A stretch of 64,000 nt of DNA, taken from the IMG/VR virus record IMGVR_UViG_3300035208_003134, positions 1-64,000 of that record. One strand, given 5' to 3'. This DNA is from a virus. Its lineage: Duplodnaviria; Caudoviricetes. This document shows positions 11,796-42,369 of this stretch, one piece after another. The notes beneath the pieces were generated by a model. The model was not told where the DNA came from. It made no database searches and worked only from the letters and a program-made list of their open reading frames with translations. The position numbers were made by a program, and so were the translations under genes. Each line of letters opens with the position of its first letter. Positions within the stretch are counted from its first letter, which is position 1.

Positions 11796-14700
11796 ATGGC
11801 AACCTTAACAAATAACGGTTTTGAAACTTGGACTACGCCTGGCTCTCCTGGCGGTTGGAGTGGTTCTTTGCCAGGGTGGACGCCCTACTCTGAAAACGGC
11901 GGTACTATGTCGCAACAAGCTGCCGTAGCCGGTATGGGCGGTAGTTATTGTGCCAACATAAGGTCAAGTAGTGCTGCACCGGTGAATTCAATAGGTGGTT
12001 GTGTATCCGACTCCTTTGAATTAGATGCAGACTACGTCTATTTCCTACATTCAGACCAATCTACCTCGGTAGCAGTTATGTTTTATCTGTTGGATGCGGA
12101 CGACGGGGATAGCGTCTTGATGTCACAGGCTATTACCCCGACTACTTCCCTTGTCCGTGAAGCTATTGATGTCTCTGCTTACATCGGTTACAATGTAAAG
12201 GTAAAAGTTACGCAACACACGGCTTCAGCCGGTTCGGGGTATGCTACATATGTTGATTTCTTCATAGTTAGCAGTCTAAACCATTTTCCTCCCTTATTAA
12301 ATGCCACTTATGTAAAAGCAACGAGCACTGGGGGTACGCATTACCCATACGGAGCTACCGATGGTGACAGACCGCTAACTGGGGCTTGGGATGGCAATGA
12401 TTGGTTGGGTAGTGCTGATAATAGCCAGCGTTTCCACATAGATTTAGGTGCGGCGATAGCAATAAATAAAATATATTATGAGAATGACCACAACAGTGGG
12501 GGTTCTACAACTTTCGGTGCAAAAGAATTCACTTTTTGGGGTTCAAATTCGGCGGCCGCTTTTGCAGATACGGTCTATGCGCACGACACTGATTGGACGC
12601 AGTTAACCACAGATGTTTCACAGTTTGACCAACACGTTGCTTCAGATGTGGCTGACCCTAAATATGTAGCCGTAACCAACTCTACAGCTTACCGCTATTA
12701 CGCCGTTAAGATTGCTAACAACTGGGGTGGCGTTAACCAGATGGGTATAAGGCGCATAGTCTTGCAATCAGAGACTACTTCATCCAGCTCTTCAAGTTGC
12801 AGTTCATCTTCTTCAAGTTGCAGGAGCAGTTCAAGTAGTTCCAGTAGGAGCTCATCCTCAAGCAGTTCAAGTAGCCGGAGTAGCAGTAGCTCAAGCTCCA
12901 AAAGTTCAAGTTCTTCCAGCTCTTCAAGCCGGAGCAGTTCGTCATCAAGCTGTAGGAGCTCAAGCTCTTCATCCAGCTCTTCTCGCTCTTCCTCATCTTC
13001 TTCAAGCAGTAGTAGGAGTTCAAGCTCTTCATCCCTAAGCTTATCTTTATCCAGTTCTTCAAGCCAAAGTAGTTCGTCAAGTTCATCGTCGGCTTCCAGC
13101 TCTTCGTCTTCATTCTTTAGCTCTTCGTCAAGCTCCAGCTTAAGTACTTCATCCAGTAGCTCAAGTAGCCGTAGTTCCTCAAGCTCAAGCAGTAGCTCTA
13201 AAAGTAGTTCCTCGTCTTCAAGTAGCTCTAAGAGCTCAAGTTCCTCATCCAGTCGTTCTTCCAGTAGCTTGTCTTCAAGTAGCTCTTCGTCTTCAAGTAG
13301 CCGGAGTTCTTCATCATCCAGTAGTAGTTCTCGCAGTTCTTCAAGTAGCTCTCGGTCTTTCTCGTCCAGTAGCACAAGTATGTCCAGCTCTTCAAGTTCT
13401 TTAACGCCATATGTTAAGGACTTGTACTGCAATGCCGGAATTACCAAGGAAGATACAGTAAATTTTTATGGAAATGCTGAGATTGTGCAGAAAGCCCCAA
13501 CCATACCAACCGGACTGTTTGCTACCGATATGCAGAAGGGAGATTTGATAAGGTTAAGGTGGACTGACGACGAGAACTACGGGTACAATGTGTACCGGAC
13601 AGCACCGGGACCAAGAGTTAAACTAAATACTTATGTTATAACTGACAATCAGTACTATGTTGGAAACCTTACTTTATTGCAGCCTTATAGCTTTGTTGTT
13701 GTAGGTGTCAACGGTATTGACACGGAGAGTGGGGATAGCAATGTAGCCTCGGCTACTCCCACAATCATAGACTTTCAAGGTCAGAGGTATACTACTTATT
13801 CATTTTCAGTGAAGGTTAATGGGGTAGCCAGAGCGCAGACAATACTTGAGTCGGTTGAGCTCGGTTATGGCACTTCGCCATCCACAAGCAAGTTCTATAT
13901 CCCTGAAGACCCAATTACTGCTACAAACCTTCCAGAAATTGACGACGAGGTTGAAATTATAGTTAATGGAAGCTCCATATTCAAGGGCATAATTAAGAAC
14001 AAAGAGGATGTTATAAACATTAGAGAGAAGAAGGTTGCCTATATAGCATATAGCAAAGTAATCCTGCAGACCTACAACCCGACGACTTGGGCACAGATAC
14101 TGGCCGCTCAAGCTGATTATTACGGCTTAAACATTACCGACCAGAACCAACTCCAAGCCGAAGAGACGATTGCCAACTACATCGGTAATTATAGGCTTTA
14201 TTACAATATGCAGACTGATACGACCGAACGCTACGAGCTTGGTACTGGATATTGGAATAGGGGCATTGTTTTGGGTACGAACATTGTTGAATATGACATC
14301 ACCGAGAACAACCTAAACAAGATAACCAAGGTTACGGTAAGGGGAGACCGGAAGAGGACGCGCGTAGCTTGGCAGCCTATGTCTATGTACCGGCGCTTAT
14401 TAAGTTCTGTAGATTATCCAGGAATTACCATAACCTATTATTACAACCAAATTGATGCCTTTAACATTGGAAACATCAAGGTTGAGGCTTTTCAATCTGT
14501 TGGGCAGCCGGAGTTTGAGTTTGACCCTGAAGTGTCTATGGTCCCATCTGATTACGGTATGACTGCTTGGGAAGACGGGACAGTTGGTCCTAAGCAGAAG
14601 GTTGTAAAGTTTACCAACCCAGCGGCAGACTGGCGAGGCGCTGGAGCTCGCGTTGATTATGTATATGAGAAAGTAGGCGATAAGGATGTTCCAATTTCCG

Positions 14701-15395
14701 CATTAATAGAGTTGACTTCAAGCCCAAAGGTTTACGCAGCACGGACTTCAACCGGTCACGCAGTAAGGTTGGGTAGGAACGAGTCAGAGAATGTGGATTT
14801 GGGCTGGTGTCGGTATGCATTGCCTAACCTTGTAGGGGGCTCTGGATACAGAGTAAATTATGAATATGAAGATGAAGACCCGACCGAGGTAAGCGTCGGT
14901 AGCGGTACTCCTGCAATTACGATTACTGACACTCAATATAAAATTTTTGTCAACAATGCACCGGAGACCGGAGAGCTTACTACCGACAATACTGCGGAGG
15001 TCCTGGCTGCTATGACGGCAAGGGCTAACGGTGAACTTGCCAAGTTCAACTTGCCCGAATTAAGCGGCCGGATAAGGATTGTCGGAGACGAGACCTTTGA
15101 CCTGAAGACTCAAGTCCAAGTAAAAGGTCAAATGCTTGATGTCATCCGTGTGGTGCATAACTTTGTTGGTGGCTTTACTACCGAGCTTGAACTTACTAAT
15201 GAGAAATTTAGGGTTAATGTACCGCCATATCAAAACGTCCAGAAGACCGTCTATGACAAGAACCTCTTGTTACAGGCGATTTCCAGAATAGACAGGTTAG
15301 CGTTAGACTTGCAGGCTCGTATAAACACTACATATGTTGAACAAGACAAGAACCAAATAACTCTAACGAGCCCATTTGCACTCTATGGAGACTAA
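11796..15395 (+). CDS. tail tip/hub protein: CBM-like + discoidin (F5/8-type) + poly-Ser linker + FN3 + hub domain
   Basis: LTNNGFETW start; FHIDLG..GAKEFTFWGSN..AYRYY discoidin pattern; about 200-aa Ser tract; PTGL..LRW..GYNVYR..YSFVVVGVN FN3; C-terminal hub-like region. Confidence 0.65.
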   Translation: MATLTNNGFETWTTPGSPGGWSGSLPGWTPYSENGGTMSQQAAVAGMGGSYCANIRSSSAAPVNSIGGCVSDSFELDADYVYFLHSDQSTSVAVMFYLLDADDGDSVLMSQAITPTTSLVREAIDVSAYIGYNVKVKVTQHTASAGSGYATYVDFFIVSSLNHFPPLLNATYVKATSTGGTHYPYGATDGDRPLTGAWDGNDWLGSADNSQRFHIDLGAAIAINKIYYENDHNSGGSTTFGAKEFTFWGSNSAAAFADTVYAHDTDWTQLTTDVSQFDQHVASDVADPKYVAVTNSTAYRYYAVKIANNWGGVNQMGIRRIVLQSETTSSSSSSCSSSSSSCRSSSSSSSRSSSSSSSSSRSSSSSSSKSSSSSSSSSRSSSSSSCRSSSSSSSSSRSSSSSSSSSRSSSSSSLSLSLSSSSSQSSSSSSSSASSSSSSFFSSSSSSSLSTSSSSSSSRSSSSSSSSSKSSSSSSSSSKSSSSSSSRSSSSLSSSSSSSSSSRSSSSSSSSSRSSSSSSRSFSSSSTSMSSSSSSLTPYVKDLYCNAGITKEDTVNFYGNAEIVQKAPTIPTGLFATDMQKGDLIRLRWTDDENYGYNVYRTAPGPRVKLNTYVITDNQYYVGNLTLLQPYSFVVVGVNGIDTESGDSNVASATPTIIDFQGQRYTTYSFSVKVNGVARAQTILESVELGYGTSPSTSKFYIPEDPITATNLPEIDDEVEIIVNGSSIFKGIIKNKEDVINIREKKVAYIAYSKVILQTYNPTTWAQILAAQADYYGLNITDQNQLQAEETIANYIGNYRLYYNMQTDTTERYELGTGYWNRGIVLGTNIVEYDITENNLNKITKVTVRGDRKRTRVAWQPMSMYRRLLSSVDYPGITITYYYNQIDAFNIGNIKVEAFQSVGQPEFEFDPEVSMVPSDYGMTAWEDGTVGPKQKVVKFTNPAADWRGAGARVDYVYEKVGDKDVPISALIELTSSPKVYAARTSTGHAVRLGRNESENVDLGWCRYALPNLVGGSGYRVNYEYEDEDPTEVSVGSGTPAITITDTQYKIFVNNAPETGELTTDNTAEVLAAMTARANGELAKFNLPELSGRIRIVGDETFDLKTQVQVKGQMLDVIRVVHNFVGGFTTELELTNEKFRVNVPPYQNVQKTVYDKNLLLQAISRIDRLALDLQARINTTYVEQDKNQITLTSPFALYGD
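12779..13400 (+). repeat. poly-serine coding tract
   Basis: About 200 codons that are nearly all Ser with interspersed R/K/C/L; mixed codons. Confidence 0.9.
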
Positions 15396-16787
15396 ATGGC
15401 TAAGTGCCCGATTTGCTATACTGACCTCAACACCGGTACACCTATTGAAGTTACTGACGCCGGAAATATAGGCAGTTGGTCGGACGACCCTATCAAGACC
15501 CCCAACCACTTTGACCTTACCCTTAGGGGTACTCAAATCGTAAGAGATATCCACATAAAAGAATTGCAAGATGTTATAAACGACTACGAAGACCTATATA
15601 GCATTACGCGTACGACTTGGACGCCGATTTCAGCCTTAAGCTATATACCCAGACCCCAATATATCAATGAATTGCGCGAGGCTGTTGAAGCAATACTTGA
15701 TAGCCTTGACATAGACTTGGAGGACTGGTTGAGTAGGGATGAGAACGAAGAGCCTACTCTTGGCATAACAGATTGGCTTGATGGGCACAGGCTAACCAAG
15801 TCCATCCCTGTTAGGGGTATGCACATAGAGCAGTTGCGCAAACGAATTCACGCTTATTGGGAAGACTTTGAGCGGGGTGGCAGTGCTTCAGTTAGTGTCT
15901 CCCAACCAGGAAGCGGCGGCAGTGCTGCAGACAACTACGCTATTCAGAAGAGGCAGCTATGGGGTGGTACAGTAACGGTTGGGGTAGAATATTATAACCA
16001 CGGACTGTGGTGGTCAACAGCTTCTGCTATTTCAAGCATTGGTAATTCGGCTTATGGTTATGCCACAGCTTGTGCAAACGCCGGTAACGGGACTATGGGT
16101 GTGGCGAGTCCTTATCCGGCTGCGGCCTCCAGTAGTAGTGGTGTAGGAGCGGCAATTCCGGTTATAGGTTGGGTTACAGACTTTCCCTGCAATAAAAGAG
16201 TTTGGAACCCAATAACAGAAGTATATGATAATTATCATTTATTTGTTAAAGCCAACTGTTCTGTGAGTGTGGCTGCAAACAGCCACGTTGTTCAAGGGCA
16301 GGATGGATATATAAACCTTACTGCTCAAGGGATTGACCCTGCGGTTTGGGATGCAACACCAGTAATTCCAAATTGGATGCATACTGCTGCAGCTGAATGT
16401 GGCTTAGAGATTAATACTATACAGGGCGGTGGCGGCGGAGGTTACATAATACAATGGATACACGGAGTTTATTCTAACGGTGCTACCCCAACAGGAGGGA
16501 TACCTTACAACCTGAATAATTTTGATATTGATATCGCACAGACTATCATAGATACATACCACGTTGACCCTACAAATCAGTTTGTTACTGGGTTTAATTT
16601 TGGTTGCAATGCAGGAGGCACTGGGAATTCTTATGCAGTTCATAATGGTAAGGCAGTTCTCTTTGAGTTACCATATCCGTATATAAGTTGGTGGGGTGGT
16701 CCATATTATAACTCTGGCGGTAAAGGTACGGGAACGGCAGCTTTTTCATTAGATAATATTGACTTTTACTACAAATTAGTACCTTAA
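15396..16787 (+). CDS. putative tail fibre/receptor-binding protein
   Basis: N-terminal CPIC and three (H/Y)IxEL(R/Q)-type repeats; Gly/Ala/aromatic-rich C-terminal half. Confidence 0.5.
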   Translation: MAKCPICYTDLNTGTPIEVTDAGNIGSWSDDPIKTPNHFDLTLRGTQIVRDIHIKELQDVINDYEDLYSITRTTWTPISALSYIPRPQYINELREAVEAILDSLDIDLEDWLSRDENEEPTLGITDWLDGHRLTKSIPVRGMHIEQLRKRIHAYWEDFERGGSASVSVSQPGSGGSAADNYAIQKRQLWGGTVTVGVEYYNHGLWWSTASAISSIGNSAYGYATACANAGNGTMGVASPYPAAASSSSGVGAAIPVIGWVTDFPCNKRVWNPITEVYDNYHLFVKANCSVSVAANSHVVQGQDGYINLTAQGIDPAVWDATPVIPNWMHTAAAECGLEINTIQGGGGGGYIIQWIHGVYSNGATPTGGIPYNLNNFDIDIAQTIIDTYHVDPTNQFVTGFNFGCNAGGTGNSYAVHNGKAVLFELPYPYISWWGGPYYNSGGKGTGTAAFSLDNIDFYYKLVP

Positions 16788-20368: not shown

Positions 20369-20875
20369 CTACCTATAATTGCCTGTAAGCAACTTTTGTA
20401 CTTTTCTAAAGGTTTTTCTACTTATTAAGGCTTTGTGTGTATTTCTTTTTATTACCCACCTACTCTTAGGAGAAAGCCGGTTGCTTTGCCCTAACCTTCT
20501 ATTTCCTCGTCTCCCCCAAACAGTATCACCAACATATACAGGGTTCATAAGTATTTGCCTAACTGTATGATGAGACCAACGTTTTCCTCTTGTAGTACGC
20601 AACCTTAACTTATTTAGTCGTGTTGCAGTCCTACAAGTATTGCCTTCCTTTAAAAATATTTTGAATAACCTCTTAACCGTCTTCTTATAATAACAATCAA
20701 TTTCTAACTGCACACCTTTGTACTTGTATCCTATTGGTGCGATAGCTCCTATCCTCACTTTTCCTACTCGTTTAGCCAACCCTGCTCTGGTATTCTCACT
20801 AAGGTGGGCTGCGTTGCGAGCGTGGGCTATGATAGCTCGCAAGGTTTGGAAAAAATTTTTAATTTGTAATATCAT
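20369..20875 (-). CDS. stand-alone recombinase DNA-binding domain (large serine recombinase family; no catalytic domain)
   Basis: APIGY..VKRLF..LN..TTRGKRWSHHTVRQILMNPVYVG..THKALIS motifs. Confidence 0.8.
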   Translation of the reverse strand: MILQIKNFFQTLRAIIAHARNAAHLSENTRAGLAKRVGKVRIGAIAPIGYKYKGVQLEIDCYYKKTVKRLFKIFLKEGNTCRTATRLNKLRLRTTRGKRWSHHTVRQILMNPVYVGDTVWGRRGNRRLGQSNRLSPKSRWVIKRNTHKALISRKTFRKVQKLLTGNYR

Positions 20876-29520: not shown

Positions 29521-29871
29521 GTGATTATGGAAAAGCATATGTTGAATGTGGAAGTAACTTTGGAGAATTACCCAAAGATACTGAATGTTCTAATGAAGTC
29601 TCTCCTGCTTGATACTATGCAGAAGGTAATGAGAGACCCGTCTAACCACGAGACTGGCAAGGTTTTGGCTTCAATAATGACCGAGACGTCTAATTTCGCT
29701 TGCAGGGTAGTCTCTACGCATTTGTCTTGTCTTCCTAAAGAGGAGCAGGAAAAGGCTGTAAAGATGTTTATGGAGTCCTTTGAAGCCGACTTGCACCAGA
29801 ACTTAGAGATAAATACAGATGTGCAGAGGGTAGTGGAAGATTTGTTAAGAAGAGAGGGCAAGATAAAATGA
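29521..29871 (+). CDS. hypothetical protein
   Basis: Helical ORF with GGGGGTG RBS. Confidence 0.5.
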   Translation: MIMEKHMLNVEVTLENYPKILNVLMKSLLLDTMQKVMRDPSNHETGKVLASIMTETSNFACRVVSTHLSCLPKEEQEKAVKMFMESFEADLHQNLEINTDVQRVVEDLLRREGKIK

Positions 29872-30152
29872 AATATCAAGAAGTCGGGCGGCCTAAAAAG
29901 ATAAAGGAAGGGCAGTTACGGGTTTGGCATATTCCTCAAGTCCCTATGCACGCATTTAGGGTTTATGTTGAGAGCATTAAGGAAGCCAAGAAAATGATTG
30001 AAGTCTTGGCTGTCTATGACCTTTTCCAATATGAGTATAAGGTCAAGCCGGATTACAGTAATGTGAACGGTCTGCAGGTTTATAAAGACGGCGAATGGGT
30101 TGATTGGGAAGACGAGGAAGGCAACGATATTGACGATACAGAATTGGAGTAG
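29868..30152 (+). CDS. P22 gp17-like anti-exclusion protein
   Basis: LRVWHIPQVPM..F..YDLFQY...KPDYSNVNGL..WVDW matches the P22 gp17 family pattern as I recall it. Confidence 0.7.
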   Translation: MKYQEVGRPKKIKEGQLRVWHIPQVPMHAFRVYVESIKEAKKMIEVLAVYDLFQYEYKVKPDYSNVNGLQVYKDGEWVDWEDEEGNDIDDTELE

Positions 30153-31093: not shown

Positions 31094-31183
31094 AGTATTG
31101 TATTGTTGTGTTAAGTGACGCAATCTGATGAGGTGTGCAGAGGAGTCTGGCAAGGTGGTGTGCAGTTTAGTAATGCTATGTTA
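31094..31183 (+). repeat. pentanucleotide-periodic array A, (T/A)GY-NN x18 (candidate guide RNA)
   Basis: agtat tgtat tgttg tgtta agtga cgcaa tctga tgagg tgtgc agagg agtct ggcaa ggtgg tgtgc agttt agtaa tgcta tgtta. Confidence 0.85.
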
Positions 31184-31197
31184 AATCTAAAAAGGAG

Positions 31198-31755
31198 ATG
31201 GATGAGATGAAAGGTCTAATTGATGTTGTAGTGAAGAGCAAATGCCCGATGATGCATAACAATCCGAATGGCAGTGAGGCATTGAAAGACCGTGGTAAGG
31301 TTGATTATAACGACCCTAAGATACAGAAGATAATCTTCAATGCTGCTTCTTATCACGACAAAAAGGGCAAGTATTATATACCTTCTACGCATTTTGAGAA
31401 GGTTATAGAGCTTGCCGGTTCGCGCTTTAAGTTTCAGGGTAAGTTGACATATAATTCCATTGTTAAAGGCGGAATTATTGTGTTACCAACGGAAATATAC
31501 TTTGACAAGGGCATTAAGCCTACAATGGATATACGTTGGGGGCGTATTCCACCAGGACCAAAGGGTGCTTTGGTGAAGCTTATCAGACCTTACTTTGAAA
31601 AGTGGTCTGCTAAGTTTCAAATTGATGTATTGAATGACGCCATTGATTTTGACACCTTGCATAAGATTTTGATGTATGCAGGTGGCTACATTGGCATAGG
31701 GGCTTGGCACCCGAAGTTTGGTAGGTTTGATATAGCTAAGTTTGAACAACACTAA
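31198..31755 (+). CDS. stand-alone Cas7/Csm3-like RAMP-fold protein
   Basis: beta1 IDVVVKSKCPMMH; YYIPSTHFEKVI (IPGSSxKG-equivalent); RPYFEKWSAKFQI; C-terminal Gly-rich loop AGGYIGIGAWHPKFGRF. Confidence 0.75.
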   Translation: MDEMKGLIDVVVKSKCPMMHNNPNGSEALKDRGKVDYNDPKIQKIIFNAASYHDKKGKYYIPSTHFEKVIELAGSRFKFQGKLTYNSIVKGGIIVLPTEIYFDKGIKPTMDIRWGRIPPGPKGALVKLIRPYFEKWSAKFQIDVLNDAIDFDTLHKILMYAGGYIGIGAWHPKFGRFDIAKFEQH

Positions 31756-31760
31756 TATTC

Positions 31761-31830
31761 TGTGCTGTAATGTCTTGTGCTATATGGTGTTGTTTAGTAA
31801 CGCAATGCATTGTTTTGTCCTGTAAAGTTT
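31761..31830 (+). repeat. pentanucleotide-periodic array B, x14
   Basis: tgtgc tgtaa tgtct tgtgc tatat ggtgt tgttt agtaa cgcaa tgcat tgttt tgtcc tgtaa agttt. Confidence 0.85.
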
Positions 31831-31856: not shown

Positions 31857-32129
31857 GTGCCTAAGGTTAATAAAAAGGAAAAAATCCTGCCAAAAGGTTT
31901 TGAAGTGAAGGATTTGGTTGGTATATCTTGGGAGTCTTTGCAGCAGTTGTTTAAACAGCTTAACGGTAGGAAGATAACCAAGGAAGAATTACCTAAGTGG
32001 AAGTTAATGCTTGGCTTTGTAAATTCAACGAACAACGCTACAAAGACGAGTATGCAGTGCTTTCGTATGATTGATTTACCGGCTACTATCAAGTATATGG
32101 ATAAATCTCTCAAGAAGCGAAAGTATTGA
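31857..32129 (+). CDS. small basic protein embedded between arrays B and C
   Basis: GTG start after GGGGGTGA RBS; 90 aa, Lys-rich. Confidence 0.6.
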   Translation: MPKVNKKEKILPKGFEVKDLVGISWESLQQLFKQLNGRKITKEELPKWKLMLGFVNSTNNATKTSMQCFRMIDLPATIKYMDKSLKKRKY

Positions 32130-32134
32130 TTTAA

Positions 32135-32219
32135 TGCGGTGCGATGTTTAGCTCTGTGCGACATTGTATAGTATTGTGTGGTGCAGTCGGGTGATGTAGT
32201 GCAGTGTTTAGTAATGCAA
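32135..32219 (+). repeat. pentanucleotide-periodic array C, x17
   Basis: tgcgg tgcga tgttt agctc tgtgc gacat tgtat agtat tgtgt ggtgc agtcg ggtga tgtag tgcag tgttt agtaa tgcaa. Confidence 0.85.
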
Positions 32220-32242
32220 TTAGTTTTAATTAGATTTGTTTA

Positions 32243-32312
32243 CGCCCTGTACTGTCCGGCGATGTGGCGTAGAGAGTTGTCCTGTTATGTGGAGTTGTGT
32301 TAAGTTCTGTAA
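32243..32312 (+). repeat. pentanucleotide-periodic array D, x14
   Basis: cgccc tgtac tgtcc ggcga tgtgg cgtag agagt tgtcc tgtta tgtgg agttg tgtta agttc tgtaa. Confidence 0.85.
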
Positions 32313-38615: not shown

Positions 38616-39488
38616 ATGGAGACACTGCCGGTTAGGTACAACTCAACAAGGACAACGATGTCGGCTTGTTGCCCTTTTTGCATAGACGCAGGCAAGACCA
38701 AGGATACCAAGTACCACTTATACATTGTCCCTGGCAAGTTCGTCTTCTGCTTCAGGTGTGATTACAAGATAAGCTATTCAAGGTTCATAGAGCGTTTCAG
38801 GATTGACTCTTCAGGTCTTAAGACCTCCGCAACTGTAGAAGCACCGGTCAAGCCCCCCGATACATTCCAAAATCTACTAAAGAAATATACTCAAGATTAC
38901 AATGACGGCATTTATTCCGAGGCCGCATTGAACTATCTACATAAAAGGAAAGTTACCGACAAGTTGATTAAAGACTTGAATATCAAGCTCGGTGTGGACA
39001 AGCTCTTTGGTAGGGTGGTGTTCATTGACGAGCTCAATAATTACTTCTTGGCGCGCTCTTTCCTGCCTTTCGTAGAACCCAAGACCTTGAACCCCGTGGG
39101 CTCTGCTTCATTGAGACCCTTTATGTATTTTAAGAAGAAGGACTACAATGCTTTGTACTTGGTTGAGGGGTGCTTTGACGCAATTCCTTACTTCAAGACC
39201 GGCAGGGATGTTGCGGTGCTATTGGGTAAGGATGTCTCACAGTACCAACTGAAGCAGCTCGCATCAGTCAAGGTTGACAATTTGATAATTTCTCTTGATG
39301 TGGATGCTTTTGACAGTGCTAAGAAGTTGGTCGCACAGATTGCGGCTAAGTTGCCATTGACTACCATTGGTATATTGATGTATGATGACCGGTCGGGCAA
39401 AGACCCATCAGATTATGATATTGAATTGTTTTTTAAGACTTCTATTCATTGGGTAAGGATTATGGGGGACTCTTATGAAGGACTATAA
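38616..39488 (+). CDS. DNA primase (zinc finger + TOPRIM)
   Basis: CPFC..CFRC, LVEGCFDA, LDVDA, KDPSD. Confidence 0.85.
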   Translation: METLPVRYNSTRTTMSACCPFCIDAGKTKDTKYHLYIVPGKFVFCFRCDYKISYSRFIERFRIDSSGLKTSATVEAPVKPPDTFQNLLKKYTQDYNDGIYSEAALNYLHKRKVTDKLIKDLNIKLGVDKLFGRVVFIDELNNYFLARSFLPFVEPKTLNPVGSASLRPFMYFKKKDYNALYLVEGCFDAIPYFKTGRDVAVLLGKDVSQYQLKQLASVKVDNLIISLDVDAFDSAKKLVAQIAAKLPLTTIGILMYDDRSGKDPSDYDIELFFKTSIHWVRIMGDSYEGL

Positions 39489-41103: not shown

Positions 41104-42369
41104 ATGGCTTCTACGACCGACATCTATGAATTACAACTGCTTTCTGCAGTAGTTAAAGATACAGAAATATTTCAAAAGGTACTTGGGGTCGCCGACGCAA
41201 AGCTCTTCTCCTCTACGCTGTCAGCCGAAGTCTATGACCTAATTAGGGAGTTTTATCAAGAATACAACCGAGTACCAACCCACCCAGAACTGCTTCACCT
41301 TTACAAGCGCGACCGTAATGTCTCGGACGACCAAACAATCATTGGCTTTCTGAATGCTATCTACACCCAAACAGTTGACACTGTCTTTGTCCTAAACGAG
41401 CTCCGTAGGTATGTGAAGCTTAGACGCCTTGAGAATATCTTTATGGCTTCCTATGAGAAGGTTAAGGGCGGGTCGGATGTGGATGTTTCAGCCATAGTCA
41501 CGGACATCTTCAAGGTGCAAATGAGTGCTCTACAAGACCAGCATCTGTATGGGGTAGGCATTGACGAGTCAGAGCATATAATGAAATTGGGGGAGACCAG
41601 ACACCACATACCTACCAATATAGGGTTCTTGAACGAGACCTTGGGCGGTGGCTTAGCTGGCGGTCAACTTGGGGTAATCCTTGCACCCCCTAACTACGGC
41701 AAGACTATGACACTCCTAAATTTTGCCCTGTACTCTTGGATGAAGAGGCACAATGTCCTGTTCGTGACCCTTGAAATGCCGGAGTTCTCAATCTTGAAGC
41801 GCGTGATGTTCCTGTTGTCCGGAGCACTCAATATGCAGATTGATTACAATTCTATCGGGAAACTTGCCAAGGCTGTGGACAAGAAATTTCAGATTTTCTA
41901 CCGACCGGTCAAGTCAATCACGGTTGATTACCTGTACTCGGTAGTACATCAGGCCGCTGCGGATGGCATAAAGTTTGACCAAGTCTTCATTGACTACTCC
42001 GACCTCTTGGCTTCAACTAACAAGCAGAAGGAAAAGCGCTTTGAGTTGGCGGATATCTTTACCTCGTTGAAGGCTTTCGCGCAGGTCTTGGACATTCCGG
42101 TTTGGTCGGCAACCCAATCAAATAGGGAAGGACTGCGTGCCGAGACCGTGGATATGAGCCATATGAGCGAGAGCATTGACAAAGCCTTTATTTCCGATGT
42201 AGTACTGTCATTGTCCGACAAGATTGAAGCCGACCGAGTGAGCAAGTTCTTCCTTACTAAGCACCGCGAAGGCAAGAGCGATGTCTATATTGATATGTAT
42301 GTGAATTCCAAGATGTGGATAGCTGACGCTGACAAGGCTAACGATATCAGCATTGACAAAATAGGGTAA
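41104..42369 (+). CDS. replicative DnaB-like helicase
   Basis: APPNYGKT, TLEM, FIDYSD, SATQSNR, KHREG. Confidence 0.9.
   Translation: MASTTDIYELQLLSAVVKDTEIFQKVLGVADAKLFSSTLSAEVYDLIREFYQEYNRVPTHPELLHLYKRDRNVSDDQTIIGFLNAIYTQTVDTVFVLNELRRYVKLRRLENIFMASYEKVKGGSDVDVSAIVTDIFKVQMSALQDQHLYGVGIDESEHIMKLGETRHHIPTNIGFLNETLGGGLAGGQLGVILAPPNYGKTMTLLNFALYSWMKRHNVLFVTLEMPEFSILKRVMFLLSGALNMQIDYNSIGKLAKAVDKKFQIFYRPVKSITVDYLYSVVHQAAADGIKFDQVFIDYSDLLASTNKQKEKRFELADIFTSLKAFAQVLDIPVWSATQSNREGLRAETVDMSHMSESIDKAFISDVVLSLSDKIEADRVSKFFLTKHREGKSDVYIDMYVNSKMWIADADKANDISIDKIG

What the first reader, a model, noticed from the sequence alone, without database searches (positions are those of the whole stretch)
32135..32312. 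Variable dinucleotides read like first-two-codon-positions of proteins; array C spells a terminase-like motif
Seen, NN strings: A = at at tg ta ga aa ga gg gc gg ct aa gg gc tt aa ta ta; B = gc aa ct gc at gt tt aa aa at tt cc aa tt; C = gg ga tt tc gc at at at gt gc cg ga ag ag tt aa aa; D = cc ac cc ga gg ag gt cc ta gg tg ta tc aa. Inference: read as NNx codons, C gives G-(D/E)-(F/L)-S-A-(I/M)-(I/M)-(I/M)-V-A-R-(D/E), reminiscent of the 'D(Y/F)SAxxV' motif of large-terminase RNase H domains, and D gives P-T-P-(D/E)-G-(R/S)-V-P-Y-G-(W/C)-Y. A guide that skips every third base in codon register would be blind to synonymous escape mutations. I found no match inside this window by eye. Caveat: almost any NN string can be read as codons, so this is suggestive only.
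Basis: inference. Interest (0 to 1): 0.8.

Follow-up and report, generated by a model that had tools for sequence, protein, structure and literature searches.

The report
Phage VIPR guides spelling rival enzymes
These five-base repeats are probable guide RNAs of a phage VIPR system, a CRISPR-related gene silencer described in 2026; three of the four spell, two letters per codon, conserved pieces of DNA-packaging and DNA-copying genes as other phages carry them, so this is a clear new example of a known kind.

Summary
In detail: four period-5 arrays (NGY/NN, mostly TGT/AGT) carry exactly the reported NN strings. They flank a 185-aa RAMP-fold gene matching SUSP1 Vipr, so this is a VIPR locus on a 98-kb phage. 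The skip-every-third-base, wobble-blind code is already in print, as are WGT/NN repeats. Only the 1-base skip gave family-level signals. D fits the C-terminal motif of this phage's own terminase family as relatives carry it (best 19/24, own copy 17/24). A fits the primase TOPRIM DxD motif (best 23/28, own primase 11/28). B has no target above chance. No exact target was found; best matches are 79-82%, and the families for A and D were picked after the fact. The Vipr lacks the G-loop Asp that reads the first G in SUSP1. This scan reported terminase- and primase-directed VIPR guides before, on other genomes. Verdict: new member of a known kind.

The parts
31094..31183 (+). Array A (putative vrRNA), 18 NGY/NN units; NN 1-14 read as the DxD motif of DnaG-type (TOPRIM) primases
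   Evidence: best 23/28 in viral primase locus L287, 0 of 300 shuffles; best site is the DxD motif in 26 of 30 unselected bacterial dnaG loci
31198..31755 (+). vipr gene, 185 aa (a close relative starts three codons later); RAMP/Cas7-like fold; G-loop Ala169 in place of SUSP1 Asp177
   Evidence: PDB 36pp SUSP1 Vipr E 2.5e-6; phrog_4652; AlphaFold pLDDT 94.9; Csm3/Cmr/Cas7 folds, Z up to 11.4; 991 relatives
31761..31830 (+). Array B (putative vrRNA), 14 units, with an internal copy of the shared end motif; target not found
   Evidence: best 21/28 in 1.94 Mb of fetched loci, reached by 32 of 60 shuffles
31857..32129 (+). 90-aa helical ORF in the accessory (vap) position; no known family
   Evidence: 3 relatives only; no Pfam or PHROG hit; model pLDDT 55, no fold match
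32135..32219 (+). Array C (putative vrRNA), 17 units; NN 1-14 read as the first nuclease-domain motif of phrog_38 large terminases
   Evidence: own terminase best in-frame score 14/28
32243..32312 (+). Array D (putative vrRNA), 14 units; NN 1-12 read as the C-terminal motif of this phage family's own terminase type, with Arg where this phage has Leu
   Evidence: best 19/24 (17/18 over NN 4-12) in L117; own copy (genome 73074, outside the window) 17/24
38616..39488 (+). The phage's own primase (phrog_47). Not part of the locus; its DxD region scores only 11/28 against guide A, so it would be spared

Best explanation
The locus is a VIPR system with a non-canonical WGY/NN scaffold. Each array is transcribed as a roughly 70-100 nt guide RNA (inferred). 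Vipr subunits bind one repeat each, hold the NGY triplet and present the NN for pairing with double-stranded DNA, skipping every third target base (shown for SUSP1, inferred here by homology). The bound filament blocks transcription. The guides are aimed at competing phages: C at the nuclease motif of phrog_38 large terminases, D at the conserved terminase C-terminus of sibling phages, A at the DxD motif of DnaG-type primases. All three lie in codon register on the sense reading, so synonymous third-base changes do not escape. The phage's own terminase and primase are mismatched. Loss of the G-loop Asp probably explains why the first base of the triplet is no longer G (inferred).
For: Protein. 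The SUSP1 residues that grip G2 (R138, W178) are kept as R130 and W170; D177, which reads G1, is Ala (numbering). Arrays. C: 2 of 2 IMG/VR hits are terminases, 23/28 and 22/28; best site is the motif in 21 of 30 unselected prophage terminase loci, mean best score reached by 1 of 150 shuffles, and in 5 of 7 named phages, 0 of 500 shuffles; profile test 122/100,000 random guides. D: the top 10 rows (6 distinct sequences) in 1.15 Mb are all the terminase C-terminal motif in frame, best score reached by 1 of 200 shuffles; profile test 30/100,000, 0 of 3000 shuffles. A: 23/28, 0 of 300 shuffles; flanks outside the search seed p=0.007; 26 of 30 unselected dnaG loci, 0 of 200 shuffles, profile 186/100,000. 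Gaps 0, 2 and 3 gave no such signal (same calls). In 12 Asp-bearing Vipr loci from Pseudomonadota genomes, position 1 is G in 67-100% of units, against 7 of 63 here.
Against: No exact or near-exact target: exact or nearly exact patterns found nothing or chance hits. Best matches are 82%, 82% and 79%, at the published 80% cut-off. The families for A and D were chosen after seeing weak matches in this genome and in sibling G001, so profile p-values of 3e-4 to 2e-3 would not survive correction over thousands of families. The viral primase set was seeded with the motif core, and the C pattern was relaxed with the terminase motif in mind; in bacterial genomes a similar pattern hit an unrelated helicase-like gene at 21/28. 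With the two end units included, D's best score is reached by 6 of 200 shuffles. B is unassigned. No structured 3' tail was found. Sibling G001 has an Asp-bearing Vipr with non-GGY arrays, and many of the 12 Asp loci are close kin, so the Asp-G1 link is only suggestive. Expression, binding and silencing are untested.
Confidence: 0.8

Rival explanations
1. It is a VIPR locus, but some of the motif assignments are look-alikes. The true targets are other genes or non-coding DNA not yet sequenced; for D, for instance, the similar-looking motif of a serine recombinase (likeness recalled, not tested).
For: No exact target found. Post-hoc family choice for A and D. D's first three NN fit the terminase family poorly: Pro at positions 1 and 3 is not among the common residues in 57 proteins. 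Another agent found claimed terminase likenesses to be chance on a different genome (e1-5872921, not tested here).
Against: Signals persist in sets not selected with the guides and appear only at gap 1. C's terminase reading was predicted before any search. D carries the minority Arg variant (5 of 57 relatives) with the AG start seen in L117.
Confidence: 0.12
2. Guide A silences the host's own dnaG primase rather than a rival phage's, helping to take over replication while the phage's divergent primase is spared.
For: A's best site is the DxD motif in 26 of 30 bacterial dnaG loci; own primase 11/28. The host is unknown, so its dnaG could not be scored.
Against: Bacterial dnaG reached only 21/28, viral primases 23/28. 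The Asn codon of the guide matches 36 of 37 viral sites (a seeded set), while all 26 bacterial motif sites had Gly there. Published natural targets are mostly mobile elements.
Confidence: 0.05
3. The arrays are inactive remnants or plain low-complexity DNA, and the RAMP gene works without them.
For: No conserved structured tail; B looks degenerate; no promoter signal above shuffles.
Against: Strict period-5 conservation, only beside vipr; intact gene with the RNA-binding residues kept; NN strings carry codon-phase motif information.
Confidence: 0.03

Closest known systems
VIPR systems (Vipr + vrRNA + vap), characterised type II of Escherichia phage SUSP1 and the Pseudomonas fulva prophage (bioRxiv 10.64898/2026.04.26.720920, 10.64898/2026.04.26.720927, 10.64898/2026.10.15.759431)
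   Same: Phage-borne Vipr homolog, one small partner gene, four pentamer arrays with one upstream of vipr, 1-nt skip code, wobble-aligned coding targets in conserved enzyme motifs, no self-target at 80%.
   Different: Scaffold is T/A-G-Y rather than GGY; G-loop Asp177 is Ala and Arg179 is His; no ~40-nt structured tail detected; one array lies between vipr and the partner gene; the partner gene has no known family; inferred targets are terminases and primase, not a satellite recombinase or lysogeny regulators.
Non-canonical VIPR arrays (YNNNG and NNNNG in 10.64898/2026.04.26.720920; WGT/NN and TGH/NN in 10.64898/2026.10.21.760802)
   Same: The repeat unit here fits these published consensus forms.
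   Different: The passages I saw assign no targets to such arrays. Here three guides decode with the canonical 1-nt skip, which suggests the variants use the same code.
Class 1 CRISPR RAMP backbones (Csm3, Cmr, Cas7)
   Same: Fold, Z up to 11.4 at 8-17% identity.
   Different: No CRISPR array in the window and no cas family among the 24 proteins scanned; the guide is a gapped pentamer code.

Membership tests
VIPR | Stand-alone RAMP homolog (Vipr) with RRM core, thumb and G-loop | tested here: met
   SUSP1 Vipr E 2.5e-6 over residues 124-180; RAMP fold over 1-185
VIPR | Minimal locus, mostly viral, without cas genes or CRISPR array | tested here: met
   G000 is a virus record; no CRISPR-type array in the window; no cas family among 24 proteins scanned, neighbours included; the whole genome was not scanned for cas genes
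VIPR | Pentamer arrays of GGY/NN or a related consensus, about 9-16 units | tested here: met
   NGY/NN, 14-18 units including 2-4 shared end units; related consensus forms are in print
VIPR | 1-nt skip recognition, wobble-aligned in coding sequence | tested here: met
   Computational only: gap 1 alone gives in-frame family signals for A, C and D; best matches 79-82%; not shown for B
VIPR | No self-target at 80% or more | tested here: met
   Best own-genome 1-skip scores for the full strings are 61-71%; trimmed guides A1-14, C1-14 and D1-12 reach 64-71%
VIPR | Conserved structured 3' tail on the vrRNA | tested here: inconclusive
   Only a short shared end motif; fold z-scores -0.9 to +2.1; no Rfam match; no homologous arrays were available for covariation
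VIPR | vap accessory gene linked to DNA binding or cleavage | tested here: inconclusive
   90-aa ORF in the vap position; no family or fold found
VIPR | vrRNAs expressed, bound by Vipr, and silencing targets | not testable with these tools
   Needs bench work
VIPR type II (SUSP1-like) | Type-specific Vipr clade and vap1 gene | tested here: inconclusive
   No type reference set was available; the ORF is unlike the phrog_15946 partner of sibling G001; SUSP1 vap1 itself was not compared
Class 1 CRISPR-Cas | Repeat-spacer array with contiguous spacers and several cas genes | tested here: not met

The most novel reading that the evidence does not exclude
A WGY-scaffold VIPR subtype with a new accessory protein family, in which one G-loop change (Asp to Ala) rewrote the scaffold code, and whose guides act at motif level: each silences a whole class of rivals through an enzyme motif, and guide A also silences the host's dnaG. 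That would extend VIPR from phage-phage conflict to takeover of the host.
Probability: 0.08. Interest if true: 0.75.

Novelty: new member of a known kind. Interest (0 to 1): 0.4.

Why it matters
It supports the view that non-canonical (WGY) VIPR arrays use the same 1-skip, wobble-blind code as SUSP1; the papers I read report such arrays but, in the passages seen, no targets for them. It offers a one-residue test of how Vipr reads its scaffold (Ala169 versus Asp177), and a relaxed scaffold could ease guide design. It also adds terminase and primase motifs, including those of sibling phages, to the inferred VIPR targets. None of this changes the known mechanism.

Tried and rejected
Exact or nearly exact 1-skip scans: C1-10 in viral contigs, 0 hits. 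D4-12 viral, 0. Relaxed D2-12 in metagenomes, 0. A2-10 viral, 1 hit with no flank support. A2-12 in genomes, 0. Relaxed C in genomes, 1 helicase-like hit taken as chance. Collection scans were run at gap 1 only; gaps 0, 2 and 3 were tested only on this genome and on fetched loci. C against this phage's own terminase family: rejected. B against an HTH-like gene of sibling phages (21/28): rejected as chance. Antisense readings of all four guides: nothing significant in three profiles. No close Vipr relative with DNA in IMG/VR, so NN variability between strains could not be shown. The locus is letter-identical where covered in runs X1-X3 (2 studies; X1 may be the source; X3 does not cover most of C or D). 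No RNA holder listed. A single-protein search missed G001's Vipr, which a profile later found. G001's arrays do not match this genome. The 90-aa ORF has no homolog in the fetched loci. The host was not identified. Cluster look-ups gave no closer D match. No complex prediction was run.

Full report
Observation. The window is the first 64 kb of a 97,890-base virus record with a large terminase and replication genes. A period-5 scan found four arrays at 31094-31183 (A), 31761-31830 (B), 32135-32219 (C) and 32243-32312 (D), scoring 11.5-15 against a best of 8 in 30 shuffled windows. The fixed triplet is N-G-Y: G in 60 of 63 units, a pyrimidine in 60 of 63, and a first base that is T 37, A 15, G 7, C 4. 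A short shared motif closes A, C and D and also occurs inside B, so I scored A1-14, C1-14 and D1-12 as the variable parts.

What the locus is. The gene between A and B (31198-31755) matches SUSP1 Vipr in the PDB (E 2.5e-6) and phrog_4652, and has 991 relatives at E<=0.001. Its model is confident (pLDDT 94.9) and resembles Csm3, Cmr and Cas7 RAMPs. By the alignment and the numbering in the structure paper, the residues that grip the second G (R138, W178) are kept, D177, which reads the first G, is Ala, and R179 is His. In 137 aligned family members this position is Asp in 90 and Ala in 16. A 90-aa ORF (31857-32129) sits where an accessory gene would; it has three relatives and no family or fold.

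What is in print. I read the whole text of bioRxiv 10.64898/2026.04.26.720920, parts 1-2 of 6 of 10.64898/2026.04.26.720927, parts 1-3 of 8 plus passages of 10.64898/2026.10.15.759431, and passages of 10.64898/2026.10.21.760802. The first shows the 1-nt skip rule, its alignment with the wobble position, the escape-proof argument, an 80% match cut-off and YNNNG/NNNNG variants. The third shows a guide aimed at a recombinase active site. The fourth reports WGT/NN arrays beside Vipr-like genes. The words terminase and primase do not occur in the PMC main text or supplement PDF of the first paper, and in the third terminase occurs only in methods and primase not at all. Searches listed four VIPR papers in all. 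The target tables (data S2, S3 and the bioRxiv supplementary tables) were not available and may list such targets.

Guide C. Exact seeds failed. A pattern over NN 2-12, relaxed at five positions with the terminase motif in mind, gave 2 hits in IMG/VR. Both are phrog_38 large terminases beside a portal-like gene, in sense codon register at the first nuclease-domain motif, scoring 23/28 and 22/28, and both match NN 1, which was not in the pattern. A similar pattern in bacterial genomes gave one helicase-like gene at 21/28, which shows the chance level. In 30 phrog_38 loci drawn without the guide (30 of the loci in 58 of 301 genomes), C's best site was this motif in 21, scores reached 20/28, and 1 of 150 shuffles reached the mean. 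In 7 named phages picked from 144 tblastn hits it was the best site in 5, with 0 of 500 shuffles. The phage's own terminase is another type and scores 14/28 at best.

Guide D. Its reading resembles the C-terminus of the phage's own terminase (17/24). Among 94 relatives the motif is conserved; of the 57 proteins that show it, 51 have Leu and 5 Arg where the guide reads Arg/Ser. In 103 loci (1.15 Mb) the ten best rows, six distinct sequences, are all this motif in frame. The best, L117, scores 19/24, and 17/18 over the nine 3' units, which bind first in SUSP1; 1 of 200 shuffles reached it, and 6 of 200 when the end units are included. Against a profile of 49 relatives, 30 of 100,000 random guides and 0 of 3000 shuffles scored as well. 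The first three NN fit poorly, so the actual target phage was not sampled.

Guide A. In the complete sibling phage G001, which shares 32 of 110 ORFs with this genome, one of A's best sites (19/28, chance level) was the primase DxD motif. In 79 viral primase loci all 26 distinct top sites were that motif, best 23/28 (26/32 with two more units), 0 of 300 shuffles. That set was seeded with the motif core, but the flanks outside the seed also fit (p=0.007, 37 sites). In 30 bacterial dnaG loci not selected with the guide, the motif was the best site in 26, 0 of 200 shuffles, top score 21/28. The phage's own primase scores 11/28.

Guide B. Nothing above shuffles in 1.94 Mb. It may be two short RNAs, a decayed guide, or aimed at unsampled DNA.

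How it most likely works. Shown here: the arrays, the Vipr homology, and statistical fits of three guides under the 1-skip rule only. Taken from SUSP1: filament assembly, gapped pairing and transcriptional block. Inferred: expression, the identity of the rivals, sparing of self, and the role of Ala169. On the last point, 12 Asp-bearing loci have G first in 67-100% of units (14 of 16 loci were parsed, 2 of these carry Glu, and many are close kin), but G001 has Asp with T-rich non-GGY arrays.

Weak points. There is no exact target, the best matches sit at the published cut-off, and A and D were assigned after the fact, so single p-values near 1e-3 are not decisive. The case rests on three guides each landing in frame on a conserved motif of an essential phage gene, on sets not selected with the guides, on the absence of signal at other gaps, and on the prior from characterised VIPR systems.

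Novelty. System, code and scaffold variant are published. Notes from this scan report VIPR guides against rival terminases (e1-5853732), a primase-helicase (e1-5969114) and a methyltransferase (e1-6305507) on other genomes; these are unchecked notes and I use them only to judge novelty. Verdict: new member of a known kind, interest 0.4.

Noticed in passing
L149 13840-15615 (sibling phage G001): A different VIPR locus (vipr 14166-14783, phrog_4652; partner 15008-15505, phrog_15946) whose period-5 tracts conserve TT (103 and 104 of 112 units) with G before it in only 67 of 112. This is a (G)TT/NN-like scaffold, although the protein keeps the G-loop Asp. Its strings do not match this genome.
   Followed up: partly
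window 31791-31801: Array B holds an internal copy of the motif that ends arrays A, C and D, so it may encode two short RNAs.
   Followed up: partly
window 20369-20875 (-): Gene with only the DNA-binding Recombinase domain (PF07508) of large serine recombinases, with no catalytic domain detected.
   Followed up: no
window 29868-30152 (+): Superinfection-exclusion gp17-like gene (PF17420) about 1 kb upstream of the VIPR locus, a second possible anti-competitor function.
   Followed up: no
   Followed up: no
window 38616-39488 and 41104-42369; L150 near 5123: This phage has a short separate primase, whereas sibling G001, with closely related structural genes, has an unrelated long primase that appears fused to a helicase and carries the motif guide A resembles; the replication module seems swapped between siblings.
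   Followed up: partly
L344, L345: Vipr loci with Glu at the G-loop position and overlapping, phase-shifted arrays, like the published staggered arrays.
   Followed up: no
L161 9901, L175 3946, L185 1387 (- strand): Several sibling phages carry a small HTH-like gene on the opposite strand near the terminase gene.
   Followed up: no
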